A stretch of DNA of 64,000 nucleotides, taken from the NCBI GenBank assembly GCA_000002445.1, contig CM000208.1:352001-416000 (forward strand). Direction: 5' to 3'. The position numbers were made by a program, and so were the translations under genes. This document shows, in pieces, positions 1,603 through 44,230 of this stretch. The notes beneath the pieces are model-generated. The model was given only the letters and a program-made list of their open reading frames with translations. It was not told where the DNA came from and did no database searches. Every line of letters begins with the position of its first letter. The first letter of the stretch is position 1. Source of the stretch: Trypanosoma brucei. Lineage: Eukaryota.

Positions 1603-2112
1603 CCGCCTGATACTCAACCCTCCTCCACGAAAAAAAGGAATGCAAGTAAAGAGAACACCGACAAGAATTTAGGCTGCCGGTACCTCCCGCCACTTTTTCT
1701 GTTTCAGTGTTTCCCGGTTCTCCTTTTTTTTTCGTAGGGAGTAGCCCCTATGGATTCGAACCAATAACACCAGTGTGGTTTGTCCACGCGTACGCCCTTG
1801 CCTCATAACGTTGACAGGGGGGAAAAGGTAGGAAGCATATTATAAACTACAGGCACTGGGGGTTGCAAAGGAAACACGCAAGTTATGTGCAGGGTTTGAG
1901 TGAGGCATTGGCATTGTGTTTTGGGGGCGGTGCTGCTGTCCGCCCATGTTGCACGTTATCCCGCCAGCACATACCCATTCTGCTGCCACACATTGCGAAC
2001 AGAGACAACAATAATATATTACCATTACGCGAATCTTATACACCAAGCGCTTCGGTTACAATTACCACCTTCTCCCCTCTAGCGCAAATAATCGGTAGAA
2101 CGTATAAAAGGA

Positions 2113-14640: not shown

Positions 14641-15843
14641 TATCGAAATTTACTGCGGTGTGCTGAATAGGTACAATTTTAGTCTGATTCAAGTATCGCA
14701 ACTAAAGTGAGTACCTACTTGTTTCGCACCTTCTGTTATAAACAATACGCCGGTCTTCCAGTTTTTCTTTCTTGAAACAAAAACTTACCTTGTAGAGAAC
14801 TGTTCGTCTCCAGTTCGCCTTCCTTATACACAAAGACGGGTAAACTCTTCTCAATAGTAAATCGGGTTAACAACGCCCCTTCACGTCATAAATGAGAAAC
14901 AAAAAAAAAGATGGTAAGACACAAATAAAACCGACAACATGGTGAGCAAATAAAGAAAGACAATAATTCTCAGCACCGTGACCAATTATAATACTGTTCA
15001 AGAGGTCATATTATTGAAAAATATGTGGGCTGTGATGCAGTAAAGGTAACTACAGCACTCTCCCAACAAGAGTTTCTAAAGACTACATCGCCATGAACCC
15101 GTAATTGCTCACAACAGCAGAGGAACACATATATATTATCTCAAAAATAAGGAAATATCAAAATATGGCGAAAAAACATTTAAAACCCTCTAGAAAATTG
15201 TTTAGAAAAAGATAGAGAGAGAAAGGGAGCTATCATCGTCGAGCACACAAAGCAACGACAACACTTCACAAACGATGGTGGTATATTGCCTCGGAGAGAT
15301 GCAAACGGAGCTTGAAGTAGGAATTATATGCACCGCTGGAATTAGTCTCACCCACTCGTAAGCATCCTCATGACTCATCCATCCTCAACTCCTCAAGTGA
15401 GGCACAACACCACCGACCAGGACTCACAGGGCAAAAAAGCAAGTGATTGACAAGCAACTGTTACCAGTACACCACCATCAACCACCGAGGTCGGCACACA
15501 TTACAGGAACAACGGTAATGTTATCCATCGCTTCGTTCATCGCTACGCTCCATGTGTTACACGGGAAAGAACTCTCCTCTCTTCTCATACCGGTTTCTTT
15601 ATTAGCTATTCTTCGCATCCTTTTCCCATTCATTCATCCCTTGTGCTCACATATCTTCCCCAAGTATGATCATTGTGAAACAAGCGTAGGGGAAATAACA
15701 AAACAAGCACAAGGCACAAGAGCTACCTGCTTACACAGGTAACATTAAATAGGGAGGAAGCATGGGAAAGAACAAATTTACGTACGGGTAATTGCACCAC
15801 AGAACCCCGTTGCCTCCCACCATCAGCACATCAGCGACCGCAT

Positions 15844-16503
<660 letters not shown>

Positions 16504-16665
16504 TCACGCGAGCTTTATGATATCTCTTGTGAAACCTTGTTACCGCAGAAGGAAAAGAAGATGCTAACATTGCACGATAATTGGGTTAGGTTCAAGGTAG
16601 TGGACTACCAGGTACTGCATGATACCTGTGGGGACGGCCGCATTCACGTCAATATTGCCAGATTA

Positions 16666-16708
16666 AACAAAGACAGAGGGAAAAAAAAATAAGAGGAGGG
16701 TGGAGGGA
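16666..16708 (-). promoter_or_regulatory. Polypyrimidine tract (on the transcribed minus strand) upstream of HGPRT copy A; putative trans-splicing and polyadenylation signal
   Basis: The + strand reads aaacaaagacagagggaaaaaaaaataagaggagggtggagggagaggaacg, which is polyY on the coding strand about 200 nt upstream of the ATG. It lies at the edge of the duplicated segment. Confidence 0.5.
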
Positions 16709-16870
16709 GAGGAACGTAACCATCTGGAGGCAAACGATCTTCCAAGCAAACAGCGAGCAAGGAAGTTACTGCCATATTTTCCAGTCCCTTCTCTGAGTCT
16801 GCCTAATCACGTGGGATGTTAATACAACACGATAATTTGTAAGCTATTAAGAATATGGAATTCGTTAACA

Positions 16871-25002: not shown

Positions 25003-28000
25003 TCATCTGGCATCCGTGCTTTCATCCCCTCCCCCACTAACACGTTCTTTAGGAGTAGCAGCTGATGAGAAATTCAGTACGGCTTCCGGATTTGTACTGG
25101 AGTTCGGTGAAACCTCCGCATTCGCAGGGTCCCGGGATCCCGACCCCGTGCTGTCAGTGCTAGGCTCCCGCACCACCCGCGAGAGGCGACCGAGTCGGAG
25201 TAACAAGTTATGCATTATATTGTTCAACAATAATTCCCTCTGATCCACCGGCGCCAAGGCTTTCGAGCCAAGTTGTGCGTTCCTTGCTTCTTGCACGACA
25301 TGTACAATAGCGGTCTTCATCTCGCTGTACAACGACTCCACCTGAGCCTCTCTTTCCTCTAGGAGCAGAGATTTCTGTGCCACAATGTTTCGCAGCCGTG
25401 CAATCGACTTCTGGCTCGCTGACCCTTGCGTTTTTTGGGAGTCGCAACATCCGGCAGGTGCTGAAGTTAGGGAACAAGTTTCTCGCGTACCACATTCTCT
25501 CTGTGGAGTGTACGGCACACTCGGGGATTTTTGTACACTACATTCATCGCTGCAGCTCCGCAGAAATTTGAGTCCCGTTTCATGCAGATACCCCCGCTCC
25601 TGTGCAAGGAGCTCCTGGTATTCGCGCAGCTGAAGCCGGACAGCCCTGATCTGCTCGTGGTTGCTTGTCCTCTCCACCTGCAACATACTTATCGTGTCCC
25701 GCATGGCGTTTTGCTGAGCCTCCGCCTCTTCTAAGGTGTGGCGCCACTTGCTGAGCTCCTCCCGTGCACCATTCAGCGTTTCCTGGGCAGCTTGTATTTC
25801 ACTTTCATAGGACTCCCGCTGCCACTGTATCTCATTTTGCAGCCGTTCCTTCTGTTGATTACACCTCTCGAGATTTTGCTTGATCCGTTCGGTCTCTTGG
25901 GCGGCACCCACTTGCTCCCGAACCAACTGCTCCCTATCGGCAACCAGTCCGTCGTGAGCCTCCTGCAGTTGCTTGACCTCAAGCTGTAGCGCCTCCACTT
26001 GCTCATTGAGCTGCTGAACGCGGCGGTTGTGCATTTGTTCTGCATTTTGAGTTGTATCGGCCGCTTGACGAAGGCGCTCCTTCAGTTCGTCGCAACACCC
26101 CTGAAGTTCACAATTCTTCCGTCGTACGTGATCTACCTCTTCTTGTAGAGCTGCTTTACGTGGTTCGAGAGCAGCAATACGCATTTCGGCAGCCCGCAGA
26201 GCTGCGGCGGCTTCCTCGACCTGAAGGGTGCTCGAAGATTCCAACTCACATAACTTTCCATTTAAGCGTTGGGCATCACTTTCTTGCTGTGTTGCTCGCA
26301 TACGCAACCGCTCCAACTCGGTTTCAGCAACGGCCAACTGCGCCTTCAACGAATCCAATTGGGCCTGTTGCTCTTTGCAGGATTCTCCCAACTTCGTGTT
26401 GGCTTCCCGTAGCTCCTCCACAGTTGCAGTGAGGGCGTCTGCCTGTCGACGGGAGGCTTCTTCAGCTGTACGGTTTCTCTGGGTCAACAACTGTACTTCC
26501 TGCGTGGCATCAAGCAGCTGAGACTCCAGGGAGTCCCGTTCCGTTTCGGCACGCTCAAGACGGGGAATAACGCGATCAAGACTTGACTTGGTTGACCGCA
26601 GCTGTTTCTCCAAGTCTTCGCGCGAACACTTGCACTGGTCAACCTCCTCCAATGCTGCTGCGAGTTTCTGCTCCGTTAGTTCGAGTAGTTCACGAGAGGT
26701 GTGCGTCTTTTCCCTCAGCGCCTCCTGAAGCCGAACAACCTCCCGTCGCTGTTCGTCCTCAACATCTGCTGCTGTTTTCTTCAGTTCGGAAAATAGGTGC
26801 AGGACGTTTGCGTTCTCAGTTTTCACGAGTTCCATCTTGTGTAAAGAGTTTGCATACTCGACCTTGACCACCTCCATCTCATGCTGTGTGGCGTCAAGTT
26901 TTTCATGTAACTTTCTTATAACCTTGCTGTGCTCCTCCTTATTGGAACAAAGTTCAGACTCAACTCTTTCTGAAGAGGCTTTGAATGTAGCAACTTCCTG
27001 CTGAAGTTCAGTAATTTGACGTAGCAGACCTTGTCGCTCCACCTCCGCACCCTCAACAACGGCCATGAACTCTTCGCACTGCCGCTCACCCTCGATCATA
27101 GCATCACTGGCTGCTCGCTCAATAACATCGCAACGACTAAGCAATTTACGTTGGAAGTTTACGTGGTGCCGTACAAGGTATTCATGCGCGTCCAAAACAG
27201 CCCTAAACAGATATTCCACAACGAGAGGTATTGTCAGCACCTTCTCGGCAAAGAGGTCTTCGACAACGTTATGCTTCAGCGTGGTATGATCCAGCTCCGC
27301 AGTGTGTACCTCTTTCTCAGAGCCTCCATTCTCGCTGTGCAAACGTGACTGTTCTTCCCTTTGCAGTTCAACACGATTTCTCGTCACATCCGGCAACGTT
27401 TGACAATCCTCAACGCGCAACTCGGCTTCATTACTATCATCAAGTGGAACCACGCCATCATCTACCTGGCAACTCTTGTTGCATTTAGACTGCTTGCGGC
27501 AGATCACCAAGTTACCCATGCCGATATCATCGGGAATGTCCCCACTAAAATTACAGTACGATAAACCATTTAAGTTCCCATAATCAACCCTTTCACCATT
27601 TTCTCGATCCTCGGTCATATCAACAAAAGACCGACACACAACGCCGATTGCTTCCGGGGAATCAGTTTGCACCCGCGAGGACACCTTTTCAGAACCCTTC
27701 AATACATCGACACAGTGACTACCATTTCCGACAACCTCCCTATGAGAAATGCAGCATTCCGCTTCTTTAGCACCGCAGTCAGCGGTCTCTAGATTTATAC
27801 AAGGTAAACAACTATCTGCACCCAAAAGCGATCTAACACTACCAACACTACTTGAAGTAGAAGCAACAAAAACAGTAACACCACAATATCCACGAGTTCC
27901 ACCTGCCTCCTGTGTCACATTAGCTAATTCTACTTGCTGCCTTTCTTCCAGTTCACGAAGTTCTTCCTTTAACTGATCGTTACAAGCTTGGAGAGCATTA

Positions 28001-31000
28001 AGGCGTTCAAGAATGGCATCATCCGACTCGTTACCTGTGCGGCACGTTTCAAGTTCTTCAAGAAACTTCGCCTCCTGCTCAGCCTTGTATTCCTCCAATT
28101 TCTGTCTGAGAAGTTCATCATGCTCAGCGATACGGTCAGCTGCTTCCTGTGTCACATTAGCTAATTCTACTTGCTGCCTTTCTTCCAGTTCACGAAGTTC
28201 TTCCTTTAACTGATCGTTACAAGCTTGGAGAGTATTAAGGCGTTCAAGAATGGCATCATCCGATTCGTTACCTGTGCGGCACGCTTCAAGTTCTTCAAGA
28301 AACTTCGCCTCCTGCTCAGCCTTGTATTCCTCCAATTTCTGTCTGAGAAGTTCATCATGCTCAGCGATACGGTCAGCTGCTTCCTGTGTCACATTAGCTA
28401 ATTCTACTTGCTGCCTTTCTTCCAGTTCACGAAGTTCTTCCTTTAACTGATCGTTACAAGCTTGGAGAGTATTAAGGCGTTCAAGAATGGCATCATCCGA
28501 CTCGTTACCTGTGCGGCACGCTTCAAGTTCTTCAAGAAACTTCGCCTCCTGCTCAGCCTTGTATTCCTCCAATTTCTGTCTGAGAAGTTCATCATGCTCA
28601 GCGATACGGTCAGCTGCTTCCTGTGTCACATTAGCTAATTCTACTTGCTGCCTTTCTTCCAGTTCACGAAGTTCTTCCTTTAACTGATCGTTACAAGCTT
28701 GGAGAGTATTAAGGCGTTCAAGAATGGCATCATCCGATTCGTTACCTGTGCGGCACGCTTCAAGTTCTTCAAGAAACTTCGCCTCCTGCTCAGCCTTGTA
28801 TTCCTCCAATTTCTGTCTGAGAAGTTCATCATGCTCAGCGATACGGTCAGCTGCTTCCTGTGTCACATTAGCTAATTCTACTTGCTGCCTTTCTTCCAGT
28901 TCACGAAGTTCTTCCTTTAACTGATCGTTACAAGCTTGGAGAGCATTAAGGCGTTCAAGAATGGCATCATCCGATTCGTTACCTGTGCGGCACGCTTCAA
29001 GTTCTTCAAGAAACTTCGCCTCCTGCTCAGCCTTGTATTCCTCCAATTTCTGTCTGAGAAGTTCATCATGCTCAGCGATACGGTCAGCTGCTTCCTGTGT
29101 CACATTAGCTAATTCTACTTGCTGCCTTTCTTCCAGTTCACGAAGTTCTTCCTTTAACTGATCGTTACAAGCTTGGAGAGTATTAAGGCGTTCAAGAATG
29201 GCATCATCCGATTCGTTACCTGTGCGGCACGCTTCAAGTTCTTCAAGAAACTTCGCCTCCTGCTCAGCCTTGTATTCCTCCAATTTCTGTCTGAGAAGTT
29301 CATCATGCTCAGCGATACGGTCAGCTGCTTCCTGTGTCACATTAGCTAATTCTACTTGCTGCCTTTCTTCCAGTTCACGAAGTTCTTCCTTTAACTGATC
29401 GTTACAAGCTTGGAGAGTATTAAGGCGTTCAAGAATGGCATCATCCGACTCGTTACCTGTGCGGCACGTTTCAAGTTCTTCAAGAAACTTCGCCTCCTGC
29501 TCAGCCTTGTATTCCTCCAATTTCTGTCTGAGAAGTTCATCATGCTCAGCGATACGGTCAGCTGCTTCCTGTGTCACATTAGCTAATTCTACTTGCTGCC
29601 TTTCTTCCAGTTCACGAAGTTCTTCCTTTAACTGATCGTTACAAGCTTGGAGAGTATTAAGGCGTTCAAGAATGGCATCATCCGATTCGTTACCTGTGCG
29701 GCACGCTTCAAGTTCTTCAAGAAACTTCGCCTCCTGCTCAGCCTTGTATTCCTCCAATTTCTGTCTGAGAAGTTCATCATGCTCAGCGATACGGTCAGCT
29801 GCTTCCTGTGTCACATTAGCTAATTCTACTTGCTGCCTTTCTTCCAGTTCACGAAGTTCTTCCTTTAACTGATCGTTACAAGCTTGGAGAGCATTAAGGC
29901 GTTCAAGAATGGCATCATCCGACTCGTTACCTGTGCGGCACGCTTCAAGTTCTTCAAGAAACTTCGCCTCCTGCTCAGCCTTGTATTCCTCCAATTTCTG
30001 TCTGAGAAGTTCATCATGCTCAGCGATACGGTCAGCTGCTTCCTGTGTCACATTAGCTAATTCTACTTGCTGCCTTTCTTCCAGTTCACGAAGTTCTTCC
30101 TTTAACTGATCGTTACAAGCTTGGAGAGCATTAAGGCGTTCAAGAATGGCATCATCCGATTCGTTACCTGTGCGGCACGCTTCAAGTTCTTCAAGAAACT
30201 TCGCCTCCTGCTCAGCCTTGTATTCCTCCAATTTCTGTCTGAGAAGTTCATCATGCTCAGCGATACGGTCAGCTGCTTCCTGTGTCACATTAGCTAATTC
30301 TACTTGCTGCCTTTCTTCCAGTTCACGAAGTTCTTCCTTTAACTGATCGTTACAAGCTTGGAGAGTATTAAGGCGTTCAAGAATGGCATCATCCGACTCG
30401 TTACCTGTGCGGCACGCTTCAAGTTCTTCAAGAAACTTCGCCTCCTGCTCAGCCTTGTATTCCTCCAATTTCTGTCTGAGAAGTTCATCATGCTCAGCGA
30501 TACGGTCAGCTGCTTCCTGTGTCACATTAGCTAATTCTACTTGCTGCCTTTCTTCCAGTTCACGAAGTTCTTCCTTTAACTGATCGTTACAAGCTTGGAG
30601 AGTATTAAGGCGTTCAAGAATGGCATCATCCGACTCGTTACCTGTGCGGCACGTTTCAAGTTCTTCAAGAAACTTCGCCTCCTGCTCAGCCTTGTATTCC
30701 TCCAATTTCTGTCTGAGAAGTTCATCATGCTCAGCGATACGGTCAGCTGCTTCCTGTGTCACATTAGCTAATTCTACTTGCTGCCTTTCTTCCAGTTCAC
30801 GAAGTTCTTCCTTTAACTGATCGTTACAAGCTTGGAGAGTATTAAGGCGTTCAAGAATGGCATCATCCGATTCGTTACCTGTGCGGCACGCTTCAAGTTC
30901 TTCAAGAAACTTCGCCTCCTGCTCAGCCTTGTATTCCTCCAATTTCTGTCTGAGAAGTTCATCATGCTCAGCGATACGGTCAGCTGCTTCCTGTGTCACA

Positions 31001-33621
31001 TTAGCTAATTCTACTTGCTGCCTTTCTTCCAGTTCACGAAGTTCTTCCTTTAACTGATCGTTACAAGCTTGGAGAGTATTAAGGCGTTCAAGAATGGCAT
31101 CATCCGACTCGTTACCTGTGCGGCACGCTTCAAGTTCTTCAAGAAACTTCGCCTCCTGCTCAGCCTTGTATTCCTCCAATTTCTGTCTGAGAAGTTCATC
31201 GTGCTCAGCGATACGGTCAGCTGCTTCCTGTGTCACATTAGCTAATTCTACTTGCTGCCTTTCTTCCAGTTCACGAAGTTCTTCCTTTAACTGATCGTTA
31301 CAAGCTTGGAGAGCATTAAGGCGTTCAAGAATGGCATCATCCGATTCGTTACCTGTGCGGCACGCTTCAAGTTCTTCAAGAAACTTCGCCTCCTGCTCAG
31401 CCTTGTATTCCTCCAATTTCTGTCTGAGAAGTTCATCATGCTCAGCGATACGGTCAGCTGCTTCCTGTGTCACATTAGCTAATTCTACTTGCTGCCTTTC
31501 TTCCAGTTCACGAAGTTCTTCCTTTAACTGATCGTTACAAGCTTGGAGAGTATTAAGGCGTTCAAGAATGGCATCATCCGATTCGTTACCTGTGCGGCAC
31601 GCTTCAAGTTCTTCAAGAAACTTCGCCTCCTGCTCAGCCTTGTATTCCTCCAATTTCTGTCTGAGAAGTTCATCATGCTCAGCGATACGGTCAGCTGCTT
31701 CCTGTGTCACATTAGCTAATTCTACTTGCTGCCTTTCTTCCAGTTCACGAAGTTCTTCCTTTAACTGATCGTTACAAGCTTGGAGAGCATTAAGGCGTTC
31801 AAGAATGGCATCATCCGATTCGTTACCTGTGCGGCACGCTTCAAGTTCTTCAAGAAACTTCGCCTCCTGCTCAGCCTTGTATTCCTCCAATTTCTGTCTG
31901 AGAAGTTCATCATGCTCAGCGATACGGTCAGCTGCTTCCTGTGTCACATTAGCTAATTCTACTTGCTGCCTTTCTTCCAGTTCACGAAGTTCTTCCTTTA
32001 ACTGATCGTTACAAGCTTGGAGAGTATTAAGGCGTTCAAGAATGGCATCATCCGATTCGTTACCTGTGCGGCACGCTTCAAGTTCTTCAAGAAACTTCGC
32101 CTCCTGCTCAGCCTTGTATTCCTCCAATTTCTGTCTGAGAAGTTCATCATGCTCAGCGATACGGTGACGCAACGAGTCTACCTCTCTTGCTGCATCAGCT
32201 CTTTCACTTTCAAGTTGTTGTTGCAAGCCGGAAATGCACATCTCAAGCTCCTTAACACGAAGTGCCATTCCGGTTTCAACGCATACAGAAGGTGTCACAG
32301 AGTCTCCCACACCAAATACAACAGCATCATCATCGTCCTCCACTCTTGGTTGAGAGGCCTCACCTTGTATAACCATTTTAGCAAAAGGATTCAAAGGAAT
32401 ACCGGCGGTACTACTATTGTTTTCAGTTTCCTGTGTACTCTCAAGTGTGTGGATACGGTCTTGTAACTCACTTAGCTCCCTGATCATCGCTTTTTCGGCA
32501 CGCTTCCGTTGTTTTATTTCCTCTTGCTTCTGCTGCTCTGTTTTTTCTTTACATTCCAGTTCTTTTTTTACCTTGTTGTAGGCAACGGTACTGTCCTCGT
32601 TTATTTTCCGCTCGCGTGTTAATTCCTGCTCGAGGTTTTTTATGCGCTGGTGAGCGGCTTCTACTTCCTTTTTACTCACATCTACTTGTACGCCAAGCTC
32701 TGAGTTTGCTGCTTCTAGTTGCAAAATACGTTCTTTGCACTTCGTTTCGCTCTCCTTGATCGTATCGCCTTCGTTCTGTATTGTTACCACTTCACCTCTA
32801 AGGGCATTGTTATCATCTTTTAGTTTTTGCAGTTCTTTCGCTTTGAGTTCGAGAAGAATATGCAACTCCATTATTTGAGTTTTGAGACTGTCGTTCTGCT
32901 CATTAACGCTTTCGAGTCGGAGTTGCAATTCCCTGTCGCGCTCCTGCAGTGCTTCTTGAAGACTTTGCAACTCTTCTTCCTTTTGCAGTTGCCTTGCATT
33001 CGCCTCGGTCACACCCTTCAACTCATTTGTTAGCACATCGATTTCAGATTCTTGGTTTCGAAGTTGAGCGTTCAGTTGCTCTATTTGTTGGTGCTGTATC
33101 TCCATTGTTTTGTGTAGCGTAGCTACATCTTTGTTATACGATAACTGCTTGAAGTCTTCATCATCACCATCCACACAGCTGACGGAAGGTCCACACATCG
33201 TTAACAACGCCACGTGGTGCAACTCCTCGGGTTCCGCGGGTGTTGACTCCGGAAATAACGGTTTGTCGGTGGGAGCGCACCACTCCGCCAACTTTGTTGT
33301 GGGCATGTTGTACTCCTTTGCTGTGATATTATCGTCCTGTGGCAAATGACTACTACCACTACTACCCATATTTTGTTTATGGGCTTTGGAAGGCTCCTCT
33401 GATGTAGTGATGAGGGGAGAATGAAGTTTCCCCTGCAGCGGCATCCATTGTTCTCCTTGAAGGTACCTTTTGAATATAATATATCCCTGGCGTCTTAACT
33501 GCTCGAATTTCTCGGGTGAGTGGCTCAAAATCTCTGCGCGCCGGGCTTCCATCATCGCGCGCCCGCGTTCCATATAAGTCTTCCTCGTTTCCTCATCCAT
33601 CGTGGCGAAAGGCCCATCCAT
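25003..33621 (-). CDS. Giant coiled-coil protein with about 18 tandem 79-aa repeats (start moved to the first ATG; the track start at 33705 is a GTG)
   Basis: The track ORF is 2900 aa and the first ATG (MDGPFATMDEETRK) is at 33621-33619. Heptad-rich Glu/Leu/Lys/Gln composition throughout. The central repeat is DRIAEHDELLRQKLEEYKAEQEAKFLEELEACRTGNESDDAILERLN(T/A)LQACNDQLKEELRELEERQQVELANVTQEAA. Confidence 0.8.
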   Translation of the reverse strand: MDGPFATMDEETRKTYMERGRAMMEARRAEILSHSPEKFEQLRRQGYIIFKRYLQGEQWMPLQGKLHSPLITTSEEPSKAHKQNMGSSGSSHLPQDDNITAKEYNMPTTKLAEWCAPTDKPLFPESTPAEPEELHHVALLTMCGPSVSCVDGDDEDFKQLSYNKDVATLHKTMEIQHQQIEQLNAQLRNQESEIDVLTNELKGVTEANARQLQKEEELQSLQEALQERDRELQLRLESVNEQNDSLKTQIMELHILLELKAKELQKLKDDNNALRGEVVTIQNEGDTIKESETKCKERILQLEAANSELGVQVDVSKKEVEAAHQRIKNLEQELTRERKINEDSTVAYNKVKKELECKEKTEQQKQEEIKQRKRAEKAMIRELSELQDRIHTLESTQETENNSSTAGIPLNPFAKMVIQGEASQPRVEDDDDAVVFGVGDSVTPSVCVETGMALRVKELEMCISGLQQQLESERADAAREVDSLRHRIAEHDELLRQKLEEYKAEQEAKFLEELEACRTGNESDDAILERLNTLQACNDQLKEELRELEERQQVELANVTQEAADRIAEHDELLRQKLEEYKAEQEAKFLEELEACRTGNESDDAILERLNALQACNDQLKEELRELEERQQVELANVTQEAADRIAEHDELLRQKLEEYKAEQEAKFLEELEACRTGNESDDAILERLNTLQACNDQLKEELRELEERQQVELANVTQEAADRIAEHDELLRQKLEEYKAEQEAKFLEELEACRTGNESDDAILERLNALQACNDQLKEELRELEERQQVELANVTQEAADRIAEHDELLRQKLEEYKAEQEAKFLEELEACRTGNESDDAILERLNTLQACNDQLKEELRELEERQQVELANVTQEAADRIAEHDELLRQKLEEYKAEQEAKFLEELEACRTGNESDDAILERLNTLQACNDQLKEELRELEERQQVELANVTQEAADRIAEHDELLRQKLEEYKAEQEAKFLEELETCRTGNESDDAILERLNTLQACNDQLKEELRELEERQQVELANVTQEAADRIAEHDELLRQKLEEYKAEQEAKFLEELEACRTGNESDDAILERLNTLQACNDQLKEELRELEERQQVELANVTQEAADRIAEHDELLRQKLEEYKAEQEAKFLEELEACRTGNESDDAILERLNALQACNDQLKEELRELEERQQVELANVTQEAADRIAEHDELLRQKLEEYKAEQEAKFLEELEACRTGNESDDAILERLNALQACNDQLKEELRELEERQQVELANVTQEAADRIAEHDELLRQKLEEYKAEQEAKFLEELEACRTGNESDDAILERLNTLQACNDQLKEELRELEERQQVELANVTQEAADRIAEHDELLRQKLEEYKAEQEAKFLEELETCRTGNESDDAILERLNTLQACNDQLKEELRELEERQQVELANVTQEAADRIAEHDELLRQKLEEYKAEQEAKFLEELEACRTGNESDDAILERLNTLQACNDQLKEELRELEERQQVELANVTQEAADRIAEHDELLRQKLEEYKAEQEAKFLEELEACRTGNESDDAILERLNALQACNDQLKEELRELEERQQVELANVTQEAADRIAEHDELLRQKLEEYKAEQEAKFLEELEACRTGNESDDAILERLNTLQACNDQLKEELRELEERQQVELANVTQEAADRIAEHDELLRQKLEEYKAEQEAKFLEELEACRTGNESDDAILERLNTLQACNDQLKEELRELEERQQVELANVTQEAADRIAEHDELLRQKLEEYKAEQEAKFLEELEACRTGNESDDAILERLNTLQACNDQLKEELRELEERQQVELANVTQEAADRIAEHDELLRQKLEEYKAEQEAKFLEELETCRTGNESDDAILERLNALQACNDQLKEELRELEERQQVELANVTQEAGGTRGYCGVTVFVASTSSSVGSVRSLLGADSCLPCINLETADCGAKEAECCISHREVVGNGSHCVDVLKGSEKVSSRVQTDSPEAIGVVCRSFVDMTEDRENGERVDYGNLNGLSYCNFSGDIPDDIGMGNLVICRKQSKCNKSCQVDDGVVPLDDSNEAELRVEDCQTLPDVTRNRVELQREEQSRLHSENGGSEKEVHTAELDHTTLKHNVVEDLFAEKVLTIPLVVEYLFRAVLDAHEYLVRHHVNFQRKLLSRCDVIERAASDAMIEGERQCEEFMAVVEGAEVERQGLLRQITELQQEVATFKASSERVESELCSNKEEHSKVIRKLHEKLDATQHEMEVVKVEYANSLHKMELVKTENANVLHLFSELKKTAADVEDEQRREVVRLQEALREKTHTSRELLELTEQKLAAALEEVDQCKCSREDLEKQLRSTKSSLDRVIPRLERAETERDSLESQLLDATQEVQLLTQRNRTAEEASRRQADALTATVEELREANTKLGESCKEQQAQLDSLKAQLAVAETELERLRMRATQQESDAQRLNGKLCELESSSTLQVEEAAAALRAAEMRIAALEPRKAALQEEVDHVRRKNCELQGCCDELKERLRQAADTTQNAEQMHNRRVQQLNEQVEALQLEVKQLQEAHDGLVADREQLVREQVGAAQETERIKQNLERCNQQKERLQNEIQWQRESYESEIQAAQETLNGAREELSKWRHTLEEAEAQQNAMRDTISMLQVERTSNHEQIRAVRLQLREYQELLAQERGYLHETGLKFLRSCSDECSVQKSPSVPYTPQRECGTRETCSLTSAPAGCCDSQKTQGSASQKSIARLRNIVAQKSLLLEEREAQVESLYSEMKTAIVHVVQEARNAQLGSKALAPVDQRELLLNNIMHNLLLRLGRLSRVVREPSTDSTGSGSRDPANAEVSPNSSTNPEAVLNFSSAATPKERVSGGGDESTDAR
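27905..32170. repeat. Tandem array of about 18 copies of a 237-bp unit (in-frame 79-aa repeats inside the giant CDS)
   Basis: The exact 237-bp period is visible as 17 identical + strand antisense ORFs spaced 237 bp apart (28013...31805). Copies differ at only 3 or 4 positions (agagcatt versus agagtatt; cacgcttc versus cacgtttc; gactcg versus gattcg). Confidence 0.9.
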
Positions 33622-34875
33622 CCCTCGCTGTGACGACCACGCGGATGGGTAAGCGAATGTAATCTTGTTTCTTAAAACGCAAAAGAAAAAAATCTCTAGG
33701 TACACTCGTACAGCGTTACAATTGTGATAAAGACAAGAGTCTGCTCAGGATATGGAAAAAGGAAATGAAGTTCCTCAGGCACCTATGTCCCCACAACCTT
33801 ATCAAACTAGTGGAAAATTCCCTCTGCCGGTGTGTTTTTTTTCCTCCCCCCTTTTATTTTTCTTGCACTCACTCCGCTTTGTCTGTATTATTCCCCTTTC
33901 TTCCTTCCCTCCCCTCCGCCCCGTTGTGCGACCAACAACGTACACGGGTGGTGGAAACGGAATTGTAAACTGGGAGAAAACCGTCCCCCCCCCAAAAAAA
34001 AGGAGAAAAAAACAAGAAAAAAACTTTGCTGCCGTGACTTCTGCCCACCACGGTAATTTGAGATATCACCCTCTGAAGAAAAAAAAAACAAAAAAGAGGG
34101 AAGAGGAAAGTAGAGAAATGCAGGGTGCAAAAAGAAACTTATTCCACACATCCGTCTCAGTGCAGTAGGGAGATTGGGAGCACAACATACCATGGAATTA
34201 TTGTAAACAAAATAATACATACAGTCGTTTCACCAAGTCACAACTGTAAGAAGGAAGAACGAAAAAAAAAAAAAGAGCAATTAGAAGTAAAAGCAATATG
34301 GTAATATATTTTGCGGAAAGTGGATCAGAAAACTAGGAGGTGAAGATACTGAAAATAAGTCAACAAAAACCACACTTCTCAGCACCAACTGTTGGTGTTG
34401 TATTCCGTAGCAACCACTATACGCAATGACCCCACGCTTGCGGTTGAGAAAATGAGGCCCTAAAGTGGAAAGCGTACTCCAACGAGAGGGTTGATGCTGA
34501 ACAACTAAGATATGAGAAGGAAGAAACTTCATTGGAAGAAGTCAGAATTAGAAACGTCCCGTTGCTCACATCACATAGGCCAGTCTACTTGATTTTATTT
34601 GCATTCCCTTTCCTTTGGATTTTTTTTTTCGCTGTTGTGAAATTCTCTACACACGAAAGGGATGTCTTGTTTCCAAACTGCGAGCTAAGTATTGCACGAA
34701 CCAGGGTCATCTGCCAAGCTCTGACATCCGAGCTTGACGACAGTCCGAACGAGACAGTATCCTGAGGAGCCGTTTTCATCCAATTCCCTACACTGCGGCC
34801 AATTGGAGCCGCGCCAAGTGGACTCCACGAATAACAAGGGAGGAAAACAGCAACAGAGAGTAGTAACAATGTTCT

Positions 34876-37416: not shown

Positions 37417-38266
37417 ACCATCAAGTAACTTACCCTCTCCGTCACTTTATACCTAGAAGGAAACTTTTAAAAATATGAACTCACTCTTTACTGCTGTTTC
37501 TTTTCCGACCTCCCCCCCCCCTCCTATGACTGCCTTTGTGTACCAACTTTTACAAGAACAAAGAAAAAAAAAGAGCGCACAATTTCCTATACATCACCGA
37601 CATATACATCTGACCTCATCGTAACTACGGCGATCAGCACATATATACCACTTAACATCCAAACACCGTGCCGAACCCTAGTCCATTTCCACACACGATG
37701 GTGGTATATTGCCTCGGAGAGATGCAAACGGAGCTTGAAGTAGGAATTATATGCACCGCTGGAATTAGTCTCACCCACTCGTAAGCATCCTCATGACTCA
37801 TCCATCCTCAACTCCTCAAGTGAGGCACAACACCACCGACCAGGACTCACAGGGCAAAAAAGCAAGTGATTGACAAGCAACTGTTACCAGTACACCACCA
37901 TCAACCACCGAGGTCGGCACACATTACAAGAACAACGGTAATGTTATCCATCGCTTCGTTCATCGCTACGCTCCATGTGTTACACGGGAAAGAACTCTCC
38001 TCTCTTCTCATACCGGTTTCTTTATTAGCTATTCTTCGCATCCTTTTCCCATTCATTCATCCCTTGTGCTCACATATCTTCCCCAAGTATGATCATTGTG
38101 AAACAAGCGTAGGGGAAATAACAAAACAAGCACAAGGCACAAGAACTACCTGCTTACACAGGTAACATTAAATAGGGAGGAAGCATGGGAAAGTACAAAT
38201 TTACGTACGGGTAATTGCACCACAGAACCCCGTTGCCTCCCACCATCAGCACATCAGCGACCGCAT

Positions 38267-38926
<660 letters not shown>

Positions 38927-39087
38927 TCACGCGAGCTTTATGATATCTCTTGTGAAACCTTGTTACCGCAGAAGGAAAAGAAGATGCTAACATTGCACGA
39001 TAATTGGGTTAGGTTCAAGGTAGTGGACTACCAGGCACTGCATGATACCTGTGGGGACGGCCGCATTCACGTCAATATTGCCAGATT

Positions 39088-39137
39088 AAACAGAGACAGA
39101 GGGGAAAAAAATAAGAGGAGGGTGGAGGGAGAGGAAC
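39088..39137 (-). promoter_or_regulatory. Polypyrimidine tract (transcribed strand) upstream of HGPRT copy B; putative trans-splicing signal
   Basis: The + strand reads aaacagagacagaggggaaaaaaataagaggagggtggagggagaggaacg, a duplicate of the copy A tract. Confidence 0.5.
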
Positions 39138-39699
39138 GTAAGCACCGTGTCCCGTCTCTTGGGGGGTAGAGACGTCAGTAACCAAATGTAGTTGTCGCTT
39201 TTATAGATGAAATGACCTTAAATGAGACCGGCGTACCATATGAGCCTAATGACGGGACGCTTTGGAAATACATCGCCGTGGTGTTAAGTCGCATTTTAGA
39301 AAAATCAGTCGACGCACATCAACCAGGGGCACCAAAGTGACCTGAAGGAGAGATAAAGGAAAGAAAGAAGAAGGGTATGTGTAGTATACAACTCATTTTC
39401 ATGTACACCTCATATGTTGCTTAGCTGTTGCTGGATGAGCATCACCACATGACACTCTACTCACACATGCATGCAGAAACACGCACACACACACACACAA
39501 ACATATATATGTATGTATACGTGTACATGTAGCTGAAAGTCCGTACATTTTTTCATGCGGGTGTATGTGTGCCTGTTATTTTTCTTTGGTTCACATTGGA
39601 CGCTGACAGAAACTGCGTCAGATAACAACTAAGATAAATATCGTCAAAAGGTGCAGAAAAAAATAAGGTTAAATGTGTGCACTGAGGATGACATGAGGA

Positions 39700-41838
39700 G
39701 ACAACAGAAGAAGTACTACCAACAGCAAGCAGCATACAATGCGTTATAACCGAAAACGGAAGAAAGGAAGGATGAAAGAAAGAAAGAAAGAAAGAGAGAA
39801 AATAAAGGACGGGGGAAGCGATGGTGGGAGGGGAGCAAATGTTCCTCGGCAGCAAAGGAGGGTAAAGGCCGACCAATGGAGGAAAAACAAAACAAAAAAA
39901 TTGGTGAGGCCTCACGGGGGGGGGGGGTTGAGAATTGAGAGGGATGGAAGAAAAGAAGAACACGTTCATACAAGACAAACACAAATACACGTGAAGCATC
40001 ACAAACACGAATTACGTGCAATCAACCTGCAGCGGAGAGGCAATAAAATAAAAAAAAAGAATGGCGGAGTGGAAAGGAGGAAACCAGCAGTTGAGCCCTT
40101 TCACACACACATAAAAAAAACTTAGCAGTGCACAACATGGCGGACCCGAACAGCTGCTACACAGTGATTGAGAAGGAAAATAAATAAATAAAAGAGTGGA
40201 AAGAAAGGGACGAAAATGAGAGGAGAGGAGAGGAGACGCATTTCCACATGTGGCGACCCGTTTTTCCAACCCCCACGTCATGAACTTTATATATTTTTCT
40301 TCCTTTTGTTTTTCTTCTTCCCCTTCCCTTTTCTTTTGTTTTTTTTTTGTTTTAAAGCCAGATTCATCCTCCCCTTTTTTTGTCCTTAAACAAAATAAAA
40401 ACTCGGCCATTGACGACCGGCTATTTGCTTGCCCTCTCCCTAACCCTGCACCTCTACCGTTTCTCTTCATGAGCTGCAAAACAAACATTCGCACGCCTTC
40501 TCCCAAAATACAATTACAAACACAAATACGCACAACAACTCATAAGCACAAACAACTTAACCACAGAAGACACAAAACAAAACAAAACATCCTGCCTTTA
40601 TTATTATTATTATTCCCCTCCATTTTTTTTTTTTGGGGGGGGGGGGGTTCACCGCCAACAAATAACTTTCTTCATTTCGCCATTTATCACATCATCACAT
40701 ATCTCAGCGCCCTCTACTGCATGGGTTTCAGTCACCCTTATTTTTATTTTGTTCCGCTTTGCATAACTTTTTTTTTGCTATTTAAAATTAACTAACTTCA
40801 TTTTTTTTCTTTTTTGCCGTTTGTCTCTTGTTTCACCTTATTTTAATCTTTTTTTTCTTGATTTTTTTCACACACGATTCCTTTTTTTTTTTCCGTTTCT
40901 TTTAATCTGCATGTGGATATACGCCCGTACGTACGCAACAGTTTCATCAAAAGGATATATATATATATATGTTTCTTTTTTTTTTCATTGGTTTTGTTTT
41001 GTTACTTGACAATTTCATTTCATTTTATTTCATTTCACTTTTCTTTTTTTTTCTTTTCTCCCCTTTCCCCTTTCCGTGCTATTCGCTATTTTCCTCCTTC
41101 CCTTTTCTCTCGCTCCCTCACCCCTTTTCCTCGCTACAACTTACAAACACAAACACAAACACACTCACACTCGCATGCGTGTACACACTTTTTCTTTTCT
41201 TTTCTTTTCTTTTCTTCTCTTTTCTCTTTTTTGATTTGTTTTGTTTTTTCTTTTAATTATCCGCGAGTGTTCGGGTCGTTGTTTTTGTTTGTTTGTTTGT
41301 TTCTTTTATTTCTTTTTTTTTTTGGGGGGGAGGGGGAGGTGTCTCTTTTCATATGGTCGCGATACTCATCGATTTTTTGTTTTGTTTTCTGTTTTTACAT
41401 CGGTGCATCTTCCGCCTCATTCTTTTCCTTTTCTTTTTTATCTTTTTTAAAAAACAAAAAACCTTTCAAGTCGTCCCTTTTCCTTCACCCGCACCTCCAA
41501 ACTCGTGTGTGTGTGGGGGGGGGGCTTTTTTTTTTTTCCTCCCTCCTGTTTTGTTCTGCCAACGGTACTTTTGTATTATTTTTTTTCTTCTTCTTTCTTC
41601 TTCGCTCCGATTTTTCTTTTTTTTTTTTTTGTTGTTTCAATTCATTTGCTCTTTTTTTTTTGAACTTTTCCTCTTGAGGAGGATATGGGGAGAAGAAAAG
41701 GAGTAGGAGGAGGGTTTTTTTTTTCATTCATTCATTCATTCATATCCACCCCCTTCCCTTCTCATTTCCTCCCTTACCGTTTATATGGTTGTTGCCTTTC
41801 TTTCTTTTCTTGTTTTGTTTTGTTGTTGTTTCATTTTT

Positions 41839-41884
<46 letters not shown>

Positions 41885-44230
41885 CATTTCAAGTAAAGAA
41901 TAAAAAAAGAAAAAAGAAAAAGAAAAGCCAACAGGATGGCCCTCCTCACAGCTGCATGTCACATTTATTTATTTTAACTCCTTCGTTGTTGTTTTGTTTT
42001 TGTTTTTGTTTTTGTTTTTGTTTTTTTTTTCCTCCTTCTCCCCCCACCTTTTGTTCTTTTTTTTTCGATTCTTCGGGGTCTTACGGCACTTTACCTGCTT
42101 CCATTCATCCATTTGAAAAAAAAAAAGAGGACGTGACGGGGACGGGGTGTGGGGGAGTAAAAACGAAAACAGCAGGCGCGGGTTCTTCCTTTTGTTATTA
42201 TTATTTTTTCTTTTTTTGTTCCTTTTGTTCCTTAAACATTAATATCATTTTATATAAAAACAAAACAAAACAAAAAACAAAAAAATTGCTCTCTCTCTCT
42301 CTCTCCCCGCCATTTTTGTTCCGTTTCATTCCGTTCTTGTGTATGTTATATCATATCATATCACTCAAGTTTTGTTTTTTCTTTTGTTTTTTTCTTTTTT
42401 TTCATTTTATTTTGTTTTTTGGTTTGCTTTGCCTCCCTCTCCCTCCTTCCCCACACCGCCGCGTATTTCCCCTCTTATTTCCTCTTCTCTTCACATGATT
42501 AATTTAAGTGCTATAAATAACCCTAATGGTAACAGTAACCGTCATAATAATAACAATAATAATAATGATGATGATGAAGATGATTGTGGCGGTGGTAGAA
42601 GCAGTAGTGTAAGTGAGCAGAAGGACGAATATAAATAAATAAATAAATATACAAATATATTCGCTCAAAAATACCCATACAAAACGGAAACACAGACACG
42701 AACGCGAACGCACGGACTCTTTCATATTTTGTTTTGTTATATATATATATATATATATATAATATTTTGTTTATGTATCTTTTTTTTTCTTCTGTGGTTG
42801 CCTCTCCTTCCTTTGGAGTTTTGGCCCAACACATACCCGCTATTGCCTTTTTTTTTCCCTTCTTCTTCTTCACTGGTTTTCGGTTGTTGTTTATTCTTTA
42901 TTTATATATTTTTTTCTTTTTTTTTGTGTGTGTTTTTTTTTTGCTTCCTTTTCCCTTTACCTTTACCTTTGCCATTGTCATTCTTTCTTTTTCTCTTTTG
43001 TTGTTGTTTTTGCTAATATTTTCACTCTCTCTTTCTCTCTTTTTCTTTTTCTTTTCCTGAAAACACAAGCACAAACTTTCATTTGTTTCTTTTTTCTTGT
43101 TTTTTTTCCTTTTGCCTCTTTTGTTTTTCCCCCCTATTATTTTCCCCCCTTTTTTCTTTTCGTTTTTTTACTTTTTTTTGTTTTACTTTCCGTTCACTCT
43201 GCAATAACGGGACTTCTTATTTTTTTAAAAAAAATTTTTTCCATCATCTCGCAATTCCCCTCCCCCTTATCTTTCCTTTTCCCTTATCTTTCCTTTTTAT
43301 TTCTTTTTTTTCCTTTTCCTTTTCCTTTTTCTGTTGTTGTTGTTGTTTGTTTGAAAAATATGATAATTCCGTCCCTTCCGTTCCATTTCAATTAAACTTG
43401 TATGTAGAGGGAATCGCACAATGAAAAAGAAATAAGAAGAGAAAATAATAAAAAAGGAGAAAATAATAAAAAAAGTAAAAAAGTAAAAGCAAAAAAGCAA
43501 AAAAGAAAGAAAAGGGGAAGTTGGGAGAAGGGGGAAAGAAAAAAAAAAGAAAAGAAAAGAATGCACAAATCCCGGAATGCAATGTCCCACATCACACAAA
43601 TAAACGTCTAGCATCACATCACACAATTCCCCGCCACTTTGCAGCCACCATTCCTTCACACGTGCTTTTATAAATATAAATATATATTTCCCCCTCCTTT
43701 TTTTTAAAAAAAAAAGTAAGTCTCATTTCTTGTTTGTCTTTGTTTTTGTTTCATCTTTCATTTTTTTTTGTTCTTGTTGTTGTTGCTGCTGCTGTTCCAT
43801 TCCTATTCTTCTTCCCCCATGGCGAAGAGAAGGAGGAGGGAGAGAAAGGAGGAAGTAAAGGAGATAAAGCGACGGTTCATTTCTTACGCATAATAATAGT
43901 AATAATAATAATAACAGTAATAATGATTGTAATAATTACTCTTTCTTATCTGCTCATTGACCGATAACATCTCCACTCTCCAGTTCCTTTTTTCTCCTCT
44001 TCCTCTTTCTTTGTTTTCTCACTCTTTCTCTTCCTCTTTTCTTTTTTTTTTTGCTTCTTCGTCGATTTCCCCCTCCACACACACACATACTTCTTCAAAA
44101 GAAGATGGGGGAAAAACAAAGAAACAGAAATCGAAAGTAAAAAGAAAAAAAGAGAATGAGAGAGTAGGGAAAGGAAAAGGAAAAAAAAAATAGTAACAAT
44201 AGTAACAGTAATAACAGTAGTAACGACAAC
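39700..44230. repeat. Low-complexity, microsatellite-rich, strand-asymmetric inter-CDS block of about 4.5 kb
   Basis: The + strand is strongly T/C-rich across 40250-43400, with short purine-rich islands (39740-40130, 43400-43560, 44100-44230). Embedded simple repeats include (GAAA)n near 39771, G12 at 39916-39927, T11G13 at 40624-40647, (TA)n near 40955, (CATT)n near 41720, (TA)20 at 41843-41882, (TGTTTT)n near 41995, (CT)n near 42290 and (TA)n near 42740. No credible ORF on either strand. Confidence 0.8.
41843..41882. repeat. (TA)20 dinucleotide microsatellite
   Basis: Read directly from the sequence. Confidence 0.9.

What the first reader, a model, noticed from the sequence alone, without database searches (positions are those of the whole stretch)
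27905..32170. About 18 near-perfect 237-bp repeats, with a higher-order variant pattern, inside an 8.6-kb coiled-coil gene
The repeats are at least 98% identical, which points to ongoing concerted evolution, and the copy number is probably variable and may be collapsed in this assembly. The rarer variant (cacgtttc, giving ETCRTG instead of EACRTG) recurs every 5 to 6 units, at the ORF starts 28013, 29435 and 30620, hinting at a super-repeat of about 1.2-1.4 kb. The 79-aa unit is predicted to be coiled-coil with a Cys pair (ACRTG...QACND) in each unit, which could suit a long fibrous cytoskeletal or flagellar protein and is antigenically repetitive. I do not recognise this 79-aa repeat from anything I know.
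Basis: partly seen in the sequence, partly recalled or inferred. Interest (0 to 1): 0.65.

Follow-up and report, generated by a model that had tools for sequence, protein, structure and literature searches.

The report
Repeat rod of trypanosome Golgi tether CAAP1
The 18 near-identical 237-bp repeats are real, but they lie in an already studied Trypanosoma brucei gene, CAAP1, whose long helical protein ties the Golgi to a cytoskeletal arm beside the flagellum, so the finding is largely ordinary.

Summary
There are 18.0 tandem copies of a 237-bp unit (window 27904-32169, minus strand). Each differs from the consensus at 0-4 bases. They lie in frame in an 8.6-kb gene (CDS 25003-33621).

The window is T. 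brucei brucei TREU927 chromosome 10. [quoted passage not shown] The papers I could read never mention the repeats.

Points added here:
- Copy number differs by whole units between assemblies: 18, 12 and 9. One short-read contig ends inside the array.
- Strain-specific substitutions sit in all or nearly all units, which indicates concerted evolution.
- The proposed 5-6-unit super-repeat is not supported (family-wise P = 0.88).
- The Cys pair is not conserved in orthologues.
- AlphaFold gives 74-residue helices broken only at RTGNES.
- Orthologues occur only in trypanosomatids. Eight of the ten species or sequences represented show a central array, with unit lengths of 59-396 aa. Across five Trypanosoma species the units share a nearly invariant RIAEHDELLRQKLEE start. 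An NPFA/acidic/FG linker is present in most.
- The published "Lava Lamp homologue" figures are reproduced by shuffled sequence.

Verdict: already known; low interest.

The parts
25003..33621 (-). CAAP1 (Tb927.10.1450) coding sequence, 2872 aa plus stop codon
   Evidence: The ORF was found, and the first ATG is at 33621. The translation is identical over its full length to XP_822403.1/EAN77575.1/Q38C95 of T. b. brucei TREU927. A published table links Q38C95, Tb927.10.1450 and the name CAAP1 (PMC9585242).
27904..32169 (-). Array of 18 x 237 bp (79 aa), covering aa 485-1906. It is the central segmented helical rod.
   Evidence: Tandem Repeats Finder result, unit table, and AlphaFold2 model of units 2-4.
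30511..30747 (-). Unit 7, which carries the Ala32Thr (ETCRTG) variant
29326..29562 (-). Unit 12, which carries the Ala32Thr (ETCRTG) variant
27904..28140 (-). Unit 18, the last and most divergent unit (4 differences), which carries the Ala32Thr variant
32416..33621 (-). N-terminal region, aa 1-402. Published prediction calls it mostly coiled coil. My model covers only aa 380-402, which are helical.
   Evidence: Translation. The helix at residues 2-23 of the model corresponds to aa 381-402. Pfam gives only sub-threshold coiled-coil noise. PMC11633155 reports a coiled-coil prediction along the whole length.
32287..32415 (-). Linker predicted to be disordered (aa 403-445). It holds the single NPFA motif (aa 411-414) and the acidic run plus FGVG.
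   Evidence: AlphaFold2 gives pLDDT below 50 and no helix for residues 24-66 of the fragment. The NPFA/acidic/FG element is conserved in orthologues, where it is often part of the repeat unit.
25591..27303 (-). Conserved C-terminal region (about aa 2107-2677), the part shared with all trypanosomatid orthologues
   Evidence: In the exhaustive phmmer search, the best stretches of the 13 hits fall within query residues about 160-775.

Best explanation
The array is the central rod of CAAP1 (Tb927.10.1450). CAAP1 is a giant, very acidic alpha-helical scaffold of Trypanosoma brucei. [quoted passage not shown] Each 79-aa unit contributes to a helix of about 74 residues that runs across the unit boundary and is broken only at a short Gly/Asn/Ser hinge. 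The 18 units would therefore form a segmented rod of up to about 210 nm if they are fully extended. The array most likely acts as a length-setting, flexible spacer. This would resemble the near-identical helical repeats of the T. brucei protein p197, which set the basal body to mitochondrion distance. The near-identity of the units comes from ongoing concerted evolution by unequal exchange or gene conversion. That process also changes the copy number in whole units between strains. Shown here or in the literature: the gene's identity, its localisation and knock-down phenotype (literature), the helix pattern (prediction), homogenisation within strains, and copy-number differences between assemblies. 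Inferred: the coiled-coil oligomeric state, the spacer role, and the true copy number.
For: Identity. The protein matches XP_822403.1/Q38C95 exactly, and the neighbouring genes match T. b. brucei TREU927 chromosome 10. The MetRS gene matches the T. brucei crystal-structure sequence. The link Q38C95 = Tb927.10.1450 = CAAP1 comes from a published table. Function (literature). The protein is a bilobe/hook-complex hit in TbPLK BioID (PMC4551316). [quoted passage not shown] Its recruitment depends on KIN-G and TbCentrin2 (PMC11633155). Structure. The AlphaFold2 model of units 2-4 has helices at 2-33, 40-113, 119-192 and 198-236, with breaks only at RTGNES (mean pLDDT 75.8). Each unit carries a net charge of -13. 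Asn54 and Leu57 are invariant across five species. Concerted evolution. All 8 readable T. b. equiperdum units (unit 4 carries a 2-bp deletion) carry the same 4 substitutions relative to the TREU927 consensus. Nine of the 10 DAL972 units located by the exact 22-nt anchor carry the same 5. Column 173 is G in all 18 TREU927 units and A in every unit read in the other two assemblies. Unit consensus sequences differ by 3-5 of 237 positions between strains, while the flanking coding sequence is 98.8-99.3% identical. Copy number. The assemblies give 18, 12 and 9 units, all whole-unit differences. A short-read contig ends inside the array. Spacer precedent. p197 has about 26 near-identical 175-aa helical repeats that determine an inter-organelle distance, and these are collapsed to 3.5 copies in the TriTrypDB gene model (PMC9546609).
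Against: No experiment has addressed the array itself. Neither the orientation of CAAP1 nor its end-to-end length has been measured. The AlphaFold2 model is a single chain built without an alignment, with pTM 0.29. It therefore says nothing about oligomeric state or whether the helices fold back on one another. A pure spacer would not need the nearly invariant 17-residue motif at the start of every unit, and p197 orthologues in other kinetoplastids have no repeats. Most CAAP1 orthologues, by contrast, do carry repeats. This points to something beyond length. The uniformity of the DAL972 and IVM-t1 arrays could partly be a product of assembly or polishing.
Confidence: 0.7

Rival explanations
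1. The array is chiefly a multivalent docking platform, not a passive spacer. On this view the nearly invariant RIAEHDELLRQKLEE segment at the start of each unit is a binding site, for example for KIN-G or for a centrin-arm or Golgi partner. What varies between strains would then be valency, not just length.
For: Across five Trypanosoma species, 11 of the first 17 unit positions are invariant (13 of 17 identical in at least 70% of sequences), against 2 invariant positions in the rest of the unit. Unit length meanwhile ranges from 59 to more than 170 aa. RIAE is kept even in the Leishmaniinae units. Most orthologues retain a repeat array, unlike p197 orthologues. CAAP1 is in proximity to KIN-G by proximity ligation assay and by BioID.
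Against: No binding data exist for the motif. A conserved helix start could equally be a coiled-coil nucleation or register-setting element. The motif resembles the Sfi1 centrin-binding pattern only in T. brucei (LLRQKLEEYK). The aromatic position is Q, E or A in the other species.
Confidence: 0.25
2. The array as shown is partly an assembly product. The true TREU927 copy number and unit order differ from the reference, probably with more copies, so the variant pattern carries no biological information.
For: The TriTrypDB gene model of another T. brucei near-identical repeat gene, p197, shows 3.5 copies against about 26 in a long-read genome. The T. equiperdum OVI contig stops inside the array. 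The PacBio IVM-t1 array carries a 2-bp deletion that breaks the ORF. T. vivax and T. cruzi orthologues are about twice as long in some assemblies: 4931 vs 2621 aa, and 5861 vs 2323 aa. No two adjacent TREU927 units share a haplotype (0 of 17, P = 0.011). That is what merging of identical neighbours would leave behind.
Against: The array is found independently in three complete assemblies, always as whole 237-bp units in frame in TREU927 and DAL972. TREU927 holds more internal variants than the others, which is what an uncollapsed assembly would show.
Confidence: 0.45
3. CAAP1 is an orthologue of the Drosophila golgin Lava Lamp, as published, so the repeat is part of a conserved eukaryotic golgin.
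For: PMC11633155 reports 22.7% identity and 53.2% similarity over about 94% of both proteins. Both are long coiled-coil peripheral Golgi proteins.
Against: Aligning CAAP1 with residue-shuffled copies of itself gives 22-23% identity, 51-53% similarity and 86-97% coverage, which are the same figures. An exhaustive phmmer search of the C-terminal 965 aa against 1.84 billion representatives found 14 hits. No Pfam family is shared.
Confidence: 0.05

Closest known systems
CAAP1 / Tb927.10.1450 (centrin arm-associated protein 1) of Trypanosoma brucei
   Same: It is this gene. The 2872-aa sequence is identical to XP_822403.1/Q38C95. The name and accession are linked in PMC9585242. Function is described in PMC11633155.
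   Different: Nothing differs. The papers I could read describe it only as 'mostly coiled-coil' and never mention the 18 x 79-aa array. Their RNAi fragment, nt 4142-4556, lies wholly inside the array (window 29066-29480).
p197 of the T. brucei tripartite attachment complex
   Same: It is a giant protein with nearly identical alpha-helical tandem repeats that links two cell structures. The repeat number is mis-assembled in the reference gene model. The helical repeat domain acts as a flexible spacer that sets the distance (PMC9546609).
   Different: I have no evidence of sequence relatedness. The p197 unit is 175 aa, not 79. p197 orthologues outside T. brucei lack repeats, whereas most CAAP1 orthologues have them, with a conserved motif.
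Golgins (long coiled-coil Golgi tethers, including Drosophila Lava Lamp)
   Same: It works like one: a very long helical protein at the Golgi periphery that attaches the organelle to a cytoskeletal element through a motor (KIN-G here, dynein for Lava Lamp, according to PMC11633155).
   Different: There is no GRIP, GRAB or other golgin targeting domain in Pfam. The family is restricted to trypanosomatids. The published similarity to Lava Lamp is at the level expected from composition alone.
Plectin/plakins (the automatic name given to several orthologues)
   Same: Only that it is a giant cytoskeleton-associated protein with long helical regions.
   Different: Pfam finds no plakin/plectin repeats, calponin-homology domains or spectrin repeats. 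The name is an annotation artefact.

Membership tests
CAAP1 (Tb927.10.1450), T. brucei | Sequence identical to the reference protein XP_822403.1/Q38C95 | tested here: met
   An exact full-length look-up finds the 2872-aa translation under EAN77575.1, XP_822403.1 and UniRef100_Q38C95, on a 4,054,025-bp TREU927 contig.
CAAP1 (Tb927.10.1450), T. brucei | Genomic context of chromosome 10: kinase, HGPRT, MKT1-like, MetRS and NOT1 upstream on the same strand | tested here: met
   Pfam results for the neighbours. The kinase, HGPRT, MetRS, the 215-aa ORF and the DUF4833 ORF match TREU927 proteins EAN77573-77579 exactly. MetRS matches the T. brucei crystal-structure sequence 4EG1 apart from a few residues.
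CAAP1 (Tb927.10.1450), T. brucei | [quoted passage not shown] | not testable with these tools
   Taken from the literature only: PMC4551316, PMC11633155 and PMC12239596.
Golgin class | Predominantly long alpha-helical or coiled-coil sequence | tested here: met
   AlphaFold2 gives helices of 74 residues in the array and helices flanking the linker. The published CoCoPRED prediction agrees. The oligomeric state was not tested.
Golgin class | A recognised Golgi-targeting module (GRIP, GRAB or a C-terminal transmembrane anchor) | tested here: not met
   Pfam scans of the whole protein at E <= 0.1, and of the N- and C-terminal parts at E <= 1, give only sub-threshold coiled-coil noise.
Lava Lamp orthology | Sequence similarity beyond what amino-acid composition gives | tested here: inconclusive
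   Shuffled-sequence controls reproduce the published identity, similarity and coverage. The exhaustive phmmer search of the C-terminal third finds trypanosomatids only. I could not make a direct comparison with the Lava Lamp sequence, and I did not verify that it is in the library.
Plectin/plakin | Plakin repeat, spectrin-repeat or calponin-homology domains | tested here: not met
   None was found in Pfam.
AMP-binding enzyme C-terminal domain (PF13193) | At least one individually significant domain match | tested here: not met
   The whole-protein score of 65.8 bits comes with 0 individually significant stretches, so it is a sum of 18 weak repeat matches. The same family is listed as 'faint' for the DAL972 protein.
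Higher-order (super-)repeat | Units separated by a fixed number of units are more alike than units at other distances | tested here: not met
   Permutation test over lags 1-9: best site-match at lag 5 is 0.641 against 0.577 expected (P = 0.23), and family-wise P = 0.88. Motif spacings suggest higher-order patterns in the T. vivax (173/173/173/246 aa) and T. cruzi (237/396 aa) orthologues, but I did not test these statistically.
Sfi1-type centrin-binding repeats | Conserved LLxxx(F/L)xxW(K/R) core in each repeat (consensus recalled from memory) | tested here: not met
   The T. brucei unit reads LLRQKLEEYK. The aromatic position is Q, E or A in the T. cruzi, T. melophagium, T. vivax and probable T. 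congolense units.
p197-like length-setting repeat spacer | Changing the length of the repeat domain changes the distance between the tethered structures | not testable with these tools
   This is shown only for p197. For CAAP1 I have only the calculated extended lengths of 106, 141 and 211 nm for 9, 12 and 18 units.

The most novel reading that the evidence does not exclude
CAAP1 may be a multivalent scaffold rather than an inert rod. Each repeat unit would present a conserved docking helix (RIAEHDELLRQKLEE). The conserved NPFA/acidic/FG linker would recruit EH-domain or adaptor-type trafficking proteins. That linker is single-copy in T. brucei but repeated 3-24 times in T. cruzi, T. vivax and the Leishmaniinae. 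On this reading, repeat turnover tunes both the reach and the valency of the centrin arm to Golgi connection between species and strains.
Probability: 0.2. Interest if true: 0.5.

Novelty: already known. Interest (0 to 1): 0.2.

Why it matters
The gene has been named, localised and knocked down, so the finding does not reveal a new element. Three points remain useful to people working on it.
1. The reference copy number (18) should not be trusted. It differs between assemblies, and another T. brucei repeat protein, p197, shows far fewer repeats in its TriTrypDB gene model than in a long-read genome. Predicted mass and tether length are therefore uncertain.
2. The published RNAi fragment lies within the repeats.
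3. The claimed Lava Lamp homology rests on figures that composition alone reproduces. The real family is trypanosomatid-specific and has two conserved short elements, the RIAEHD helix start and the NPFA/acidic/FG linker. Both are testable candidates for the still unknown binding sites that attach the Golgi to the centrin arm.

Tried and rejected
1. Two word-index homology searches, one with the C-terminal part and one with the N-terminal part plus two units, each returned only one protein, P0001. The exhaustive search was needed to find the family.
2. The Pfam AMP-binding_C hit was rejected as a summed-repeat artefact.
3. The 'plectin' name on orthologues was rejected, because no plakin domains are present.
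4. A Foldseek search of the three-unit model against the PDB found nothing. The best match was an SMC coiled coil at E = 5.7.
5. The higher-order repeat was rejected by permutation.
6. I first suspected that the T. cruzi 237-aa unit was three 79-aa subunits. It is not. It consists of one roughly 75-aa segment homologous to the T. brucei unit (48.6% identity, E = 5e-17) plus about 160 aa that contain the NPF linker.
7. An Sfi1-like centrin-binding motif was rejected because it is not conserved.
8. By eye, the acidic-FG element does not fit the canonical gamma-ear motif as I recall it. The Leishmaniinae element fits DPF. This was not tested.
9. Rfam and tRNA scans of the window found nothing.
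10. The papers by Morriswood et al. 2013 and Pham et al. 2020, cited as the earlier reports of the protein's localisation (I believe the latter introduced the CAAP1 name), were not in the library. I cannot exclude that they mention the repeats.
11. A literature search for NPF/EH-domain work in Trypanosoma found nothing.
Full report
**Observation**

Tandem Repeats Finder reports a single array at 27903-32165 with period 237, 18.0 copies, 99% matches and no indels. The array lies inside a minus-strand ORF at 25003-33705. From its first ATG at 33621 this ORF encodes 2872 aa.

Cut in frame, the array is 18 units of exactly 79 aa, covering aa 485-1906 (window 32169 down to 27904). Only eight DNA columns vary, and each unit differs from the consensus at 0-4 of 237 positions. 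The 237 nt on either side match the consensus at only 28-31%, so the edges are sharp.

The Ala32Thr (ETCRTG) variant is in units 7, 12 and 18.

**Identity**

Every substantial ORF in the window is on the minus strand and there are no introns. The neighbours include NOT1, methionyl-tRNA synthetase, an MKT1-like protein, two protein kinases and HGPRT.

- The MetRS is identical, apart from a few residues, to the Trypanosoma brucei enzyme of PDB 4EG1.
- An exact-sequence look-up finds the 2872-aa protein as EAN77575.1/XP_822403.1/Q38C95 of T. b. brucei TREU927, on a 4.05-Mb contig. Five neighbouring proteins looked up exactly carry accessions in the range EAN77573-77579.

**What is known about CAAP1**

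- Tb927.10.1450 was recovered by BioID with TbPLK and localised to the bilobe/hook complex by endogenous tagging. It had earlier been found by TbMORN1 BioID, according to the citation in PMC4551316.
- PMC11633155 reports that CAAP1 is predicted to be coiled-coil along its whole length. It lies between the TbCentrin4-marked centrin arm and the TbGRASP-marked Golgi, and is in proximity to the kinesin KIN-G.
- CAAP1 is lost from the new centrin arm when KIN-G or TbCentrin2 is depleted.
[quoted passage not shown] - Later papers treat it as the scaffold that physically connects the two structures.
- In PMC11633155, the only paper that analyses the protein's structure, the word 'repeat' occurs only in a reference title.
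- The RNAi fragment used there, nt 4142-4556, lies entirely inside the array, which spans CDS nt 1453-5718.
- The two earlier papers on this protein were not available to me.

**Anatomy of the unit**

- The unit is 42% charged, with a net charge of -13.
- An AlphaFold2 model of units 2-4 has mean pLDDT 75.8. Its helices are at 2-33, 40-113, 119-192 and 198-236.
- The structural element is therefore a helix of about 74 residues that runs through the unit boundary and is interrupted only at RTGNES.
- The pTM is 0.29, so the mutual arrangement of the helices is not defined. The oligomeric state could not be tested.
- A Foldseek search of the PDB found nothing significant.
- If the array is a fully extended coiled coil, it would measure about 211 nm for 18 units, 141 nm for 12 and 106 nm for 9.

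**Turnover of the array**

- The locus in T. b. gambiense DAL972 has 12.0 units.
- The locus in T. b. equiperdum IVM-t1 has 9.0 units, with a 2-bp deletion in unit 4. That deletion breaks the ORF and explains why only an 871-aa 'plectin' is annotated there.
- The T. equiperdum OVI contig simply ends at column 114 of the last unit.
- All 8 readable equiperdum units carry the same four substitutions relative to the TREU927 consensus.
- Nine of the 10 DAL972 units located by the exact 22-nt anchor carry the same five substitutions.
- Column 173 is G in all 18 TREU927 units and A in every unit read in the other two assemblies.
- Unit consensus sequences differ at 3-5 of 237 positions between strains, while the flanking coding sequence is 98.8-99.3% identical.

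This is the pattern expected from concerted evolution. One caveat applies: assembly or polishing may exaggerate the uniformity of the two shorter arrays.

**Super-repeat**

I described each unit by its three informative polymorphic columns and asked whether any lag from 1 to 9 units gives more similarity than shuffled unit orders. None does. The best is lag 5, with P = 0.23 by site and P = 0.08 by exact haplotype, and the family-wise P is 0.88. Three variant units spaced 5 and 6 apart is not unusual either: 6% of all triplets are as evenly and widely spaced.

One oddity remains. No two adjacent units share a haplotype (0 of 17, P = 0.011). This could be chance, a trace of two-unit duplications, or the footprint of an assembler merging identical neighbours.

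The last possibility has a precedent. The T. brucei protein p197 has 3.5 repeats in the TriTrypDB gene model and about 26 in a long-read genome (PMC9546609).

**The wider family**

An exhaustive phmmer search with the C-terminal 965 aa against 1.84 billion representative proteins found only 14 hits at E <= 0.001. Every hit whose source names an organism is from Trypanosomatidae:

- T. b. gambiense
- T. vivax
- T. congolense
- T. rangeli
- T. melophagium
- T. cruzi
- Porcisia
- Novymonas
- Leptomonas
- Angomonas

P0001 is probably the adjoining T. congolense fragment. I infer this from its consecutive UniParc number; it is not verified.

Most of these orthologues have a central tandem array, but the unit differs:

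| Species | Unit or motif spacing (aa) |
|---|---|
| Probable T. congolense | 59 |
| T. melophagium | 80 |
| T. vivax | 173 and 246 |
| T. cruzi | 237 and 396 |
| Porcisia | 61 |
| Novymonas | 69 |
| Leptomonas | 82 |

No array was detected in the T. rangeli model or in the two unnamed sequences, and the Angomonas fragment was not examined.

Protein length varies about two-fold between assemblies of one species: 2621 vs 4931 aa in T. vivax, and 2323 vs 5861 aa in T. cruzi.

The first 17 residues of the unit, (A/S/G)(D/E)RIAEHD(E/D)LLR(Q/H)KLEE, are almost invariant across five Trypanosoma species, while the rest of the unit diverges. Leishmaniinae units keep RIAE. The two Cys residues are not conserved.

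A second conserved element is NPFA followed by an acidic run and FG:

- In T. brucei it occurs once (aa 411-443), in a 43-residue stretch that AlphaFold2 leaves non-helical at pLDDT below 50, just before the array.
- In T. cruzi, T. vivax and the Leishmaniinae it is part of the repeating unit, so it occurs 3-24 times where composition predicts 0.01-0.06.
- NPF is the classical EH-domain ligand, and DPF (present in the Leishmaniinae version) is an AP-2 ear ligand. Both statements are from memory, and I tested neither.

**Comparison with known families**

The published statement that CAAP1 is a close homologue of the Drosophila golgin Lava Lamp rests on 22.7% identity and 53.2% similarity over about 94% of the length.

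- Local alignment of CAAP1 with residue-shuffled copies of itself gives 22-23% identity, 51-53% similarity and 86-97% coverage. The published figures therefore carry no evidence of homology.
- The exhaustive search found no hit attributable to an organism outside the trypanosomatids.
- Pfam finds no GRIP, GRAB, plakin or other domain.
- The only Pfam hit above threshold, AMP-binding_C, has no individually significant stretch and is a summed-repeat artefact.

CAAP1 thus works like a golgin but is not shown to be a member of any golgin family. The closest functional analogue in the same organism is p197, whose nearly identical helical repeats act as a flexible spacer that sets an inter-organelle distance.

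**Verdict**

- It belongs to a named and functionally studied gene, so the finding is already known.
- The most likely role of the array is a segmented helical spacer in the centrin arm to Golgi tether, kept homogeneous by concerted evolution.
- The conserved unit start and the NPFA linker leave room for a multivalent-scaffold role, which I put at about 0.2-0.25.
- The true copy number in TREU927 remains uncertain.

Noticed in passing
window 32287-32415 (-), aa 403-445 of CAAP1; also P0036, P0041, P0042, P0044, P0060: A short NPFA + acidic run + FG element sits in a linker predicted to be disordered, just before the array. It is conserved across trypanosomatid orthologues. In T. cruzi, T. vivax, Porcisia, Novymonas and Leptomonas it is part of the repeat unit, giving 3-24 NPF per protein against 0.01-0.06 expected from composition. 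It looks like an EH-domain/adaptor-type linear motif. No literature on this was found.
   Followed up: partly
window 29066-29480 (-), CDS nt 4142-4556: The 415-bp fragment used for CAAP1 RNAi in PMC11633155 lies entirely within the near-identical repeats (units 12-14). It therefore targets every unit. PCR of it from genomic DNA would be expected to give a ladder.
   Followed up: partly
window 15267-16719 and 37690-39141: A 1.45-kb direct duplication (98.8% identical) carries the two 210-aa HGPRT genes. The two copies bracket a 22.4-kb block that includes CAAP1. A third phosphoribosyltransferase ORF lies at 13936-14640.
   Followed up: partly
window 27904-32169: No two adjacent units of the TREU927 array have the same variant haplotype (0 of 17; P = 0.011 under shuffling). 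This could be a footprint of assembly collapse or of two-unit duplications. The copy numbers in the three assemblies (18, 12, 9) are all multiples of three, which is probably chance.
   Followed up: partly
window 28013-32005 (+): Each unit contains an antisense 66-aa ATG ORF, 17 in a row at 237-bp spacing. These are by-products of the repeat and not genes, but a naive ORF caller would list them.
   Followed up: yes
window 40000-44000 and 52000-54000: Two stretches of low G+C (33-36%, against about 48-52% elsewhere) lie between genes. The first is 5.4 kb, lies between HGPRT and the MKT1-like gene, and is T-rich on the plus strand. It holds two plus-strand ORFs (40913-41677 and 41785-42498) with no Pfam match. 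Rfam and tRNA scans found nothing there.
   Followed up: partly
L001 8296-8530 (T. b. equiperdum IVM-t1, CM010681.1): A 2-bp deletion in unit 4 of the array splits the CAAP1 ORF. As a result only an 871-aa C-terminal piece is annotated, as 'plectin'. This is probably a long-read indel error rather than a real pseudogene.
   Followed up: partly
P0036 (T. vivax KAH8618414.1) and P0060 (T. cruzi PBJ75223.1): Unlike T. brucei, these orthologues appear to show higher-order repeat patterns, judged from the spacing of the RIAEHD motif. In T. vivax the spacing runs 173/173/173/173/246 aa, recurring four times. In T. cruzi it alternates between 237 and 396 aa. I did not test these patterns statistically.
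   Followed up: partly
window 27600-27900 (-), aa about 1907-2000: Immediately after the array there is a non-helical stretch rich in Cys, Ser and Gly: about 10 Cys in 70 aa, including CLPC...C...CC...H...HC. It is not obviously conserved in the probable T. congolense fragment. I did not examine it further.
   Followed up: no
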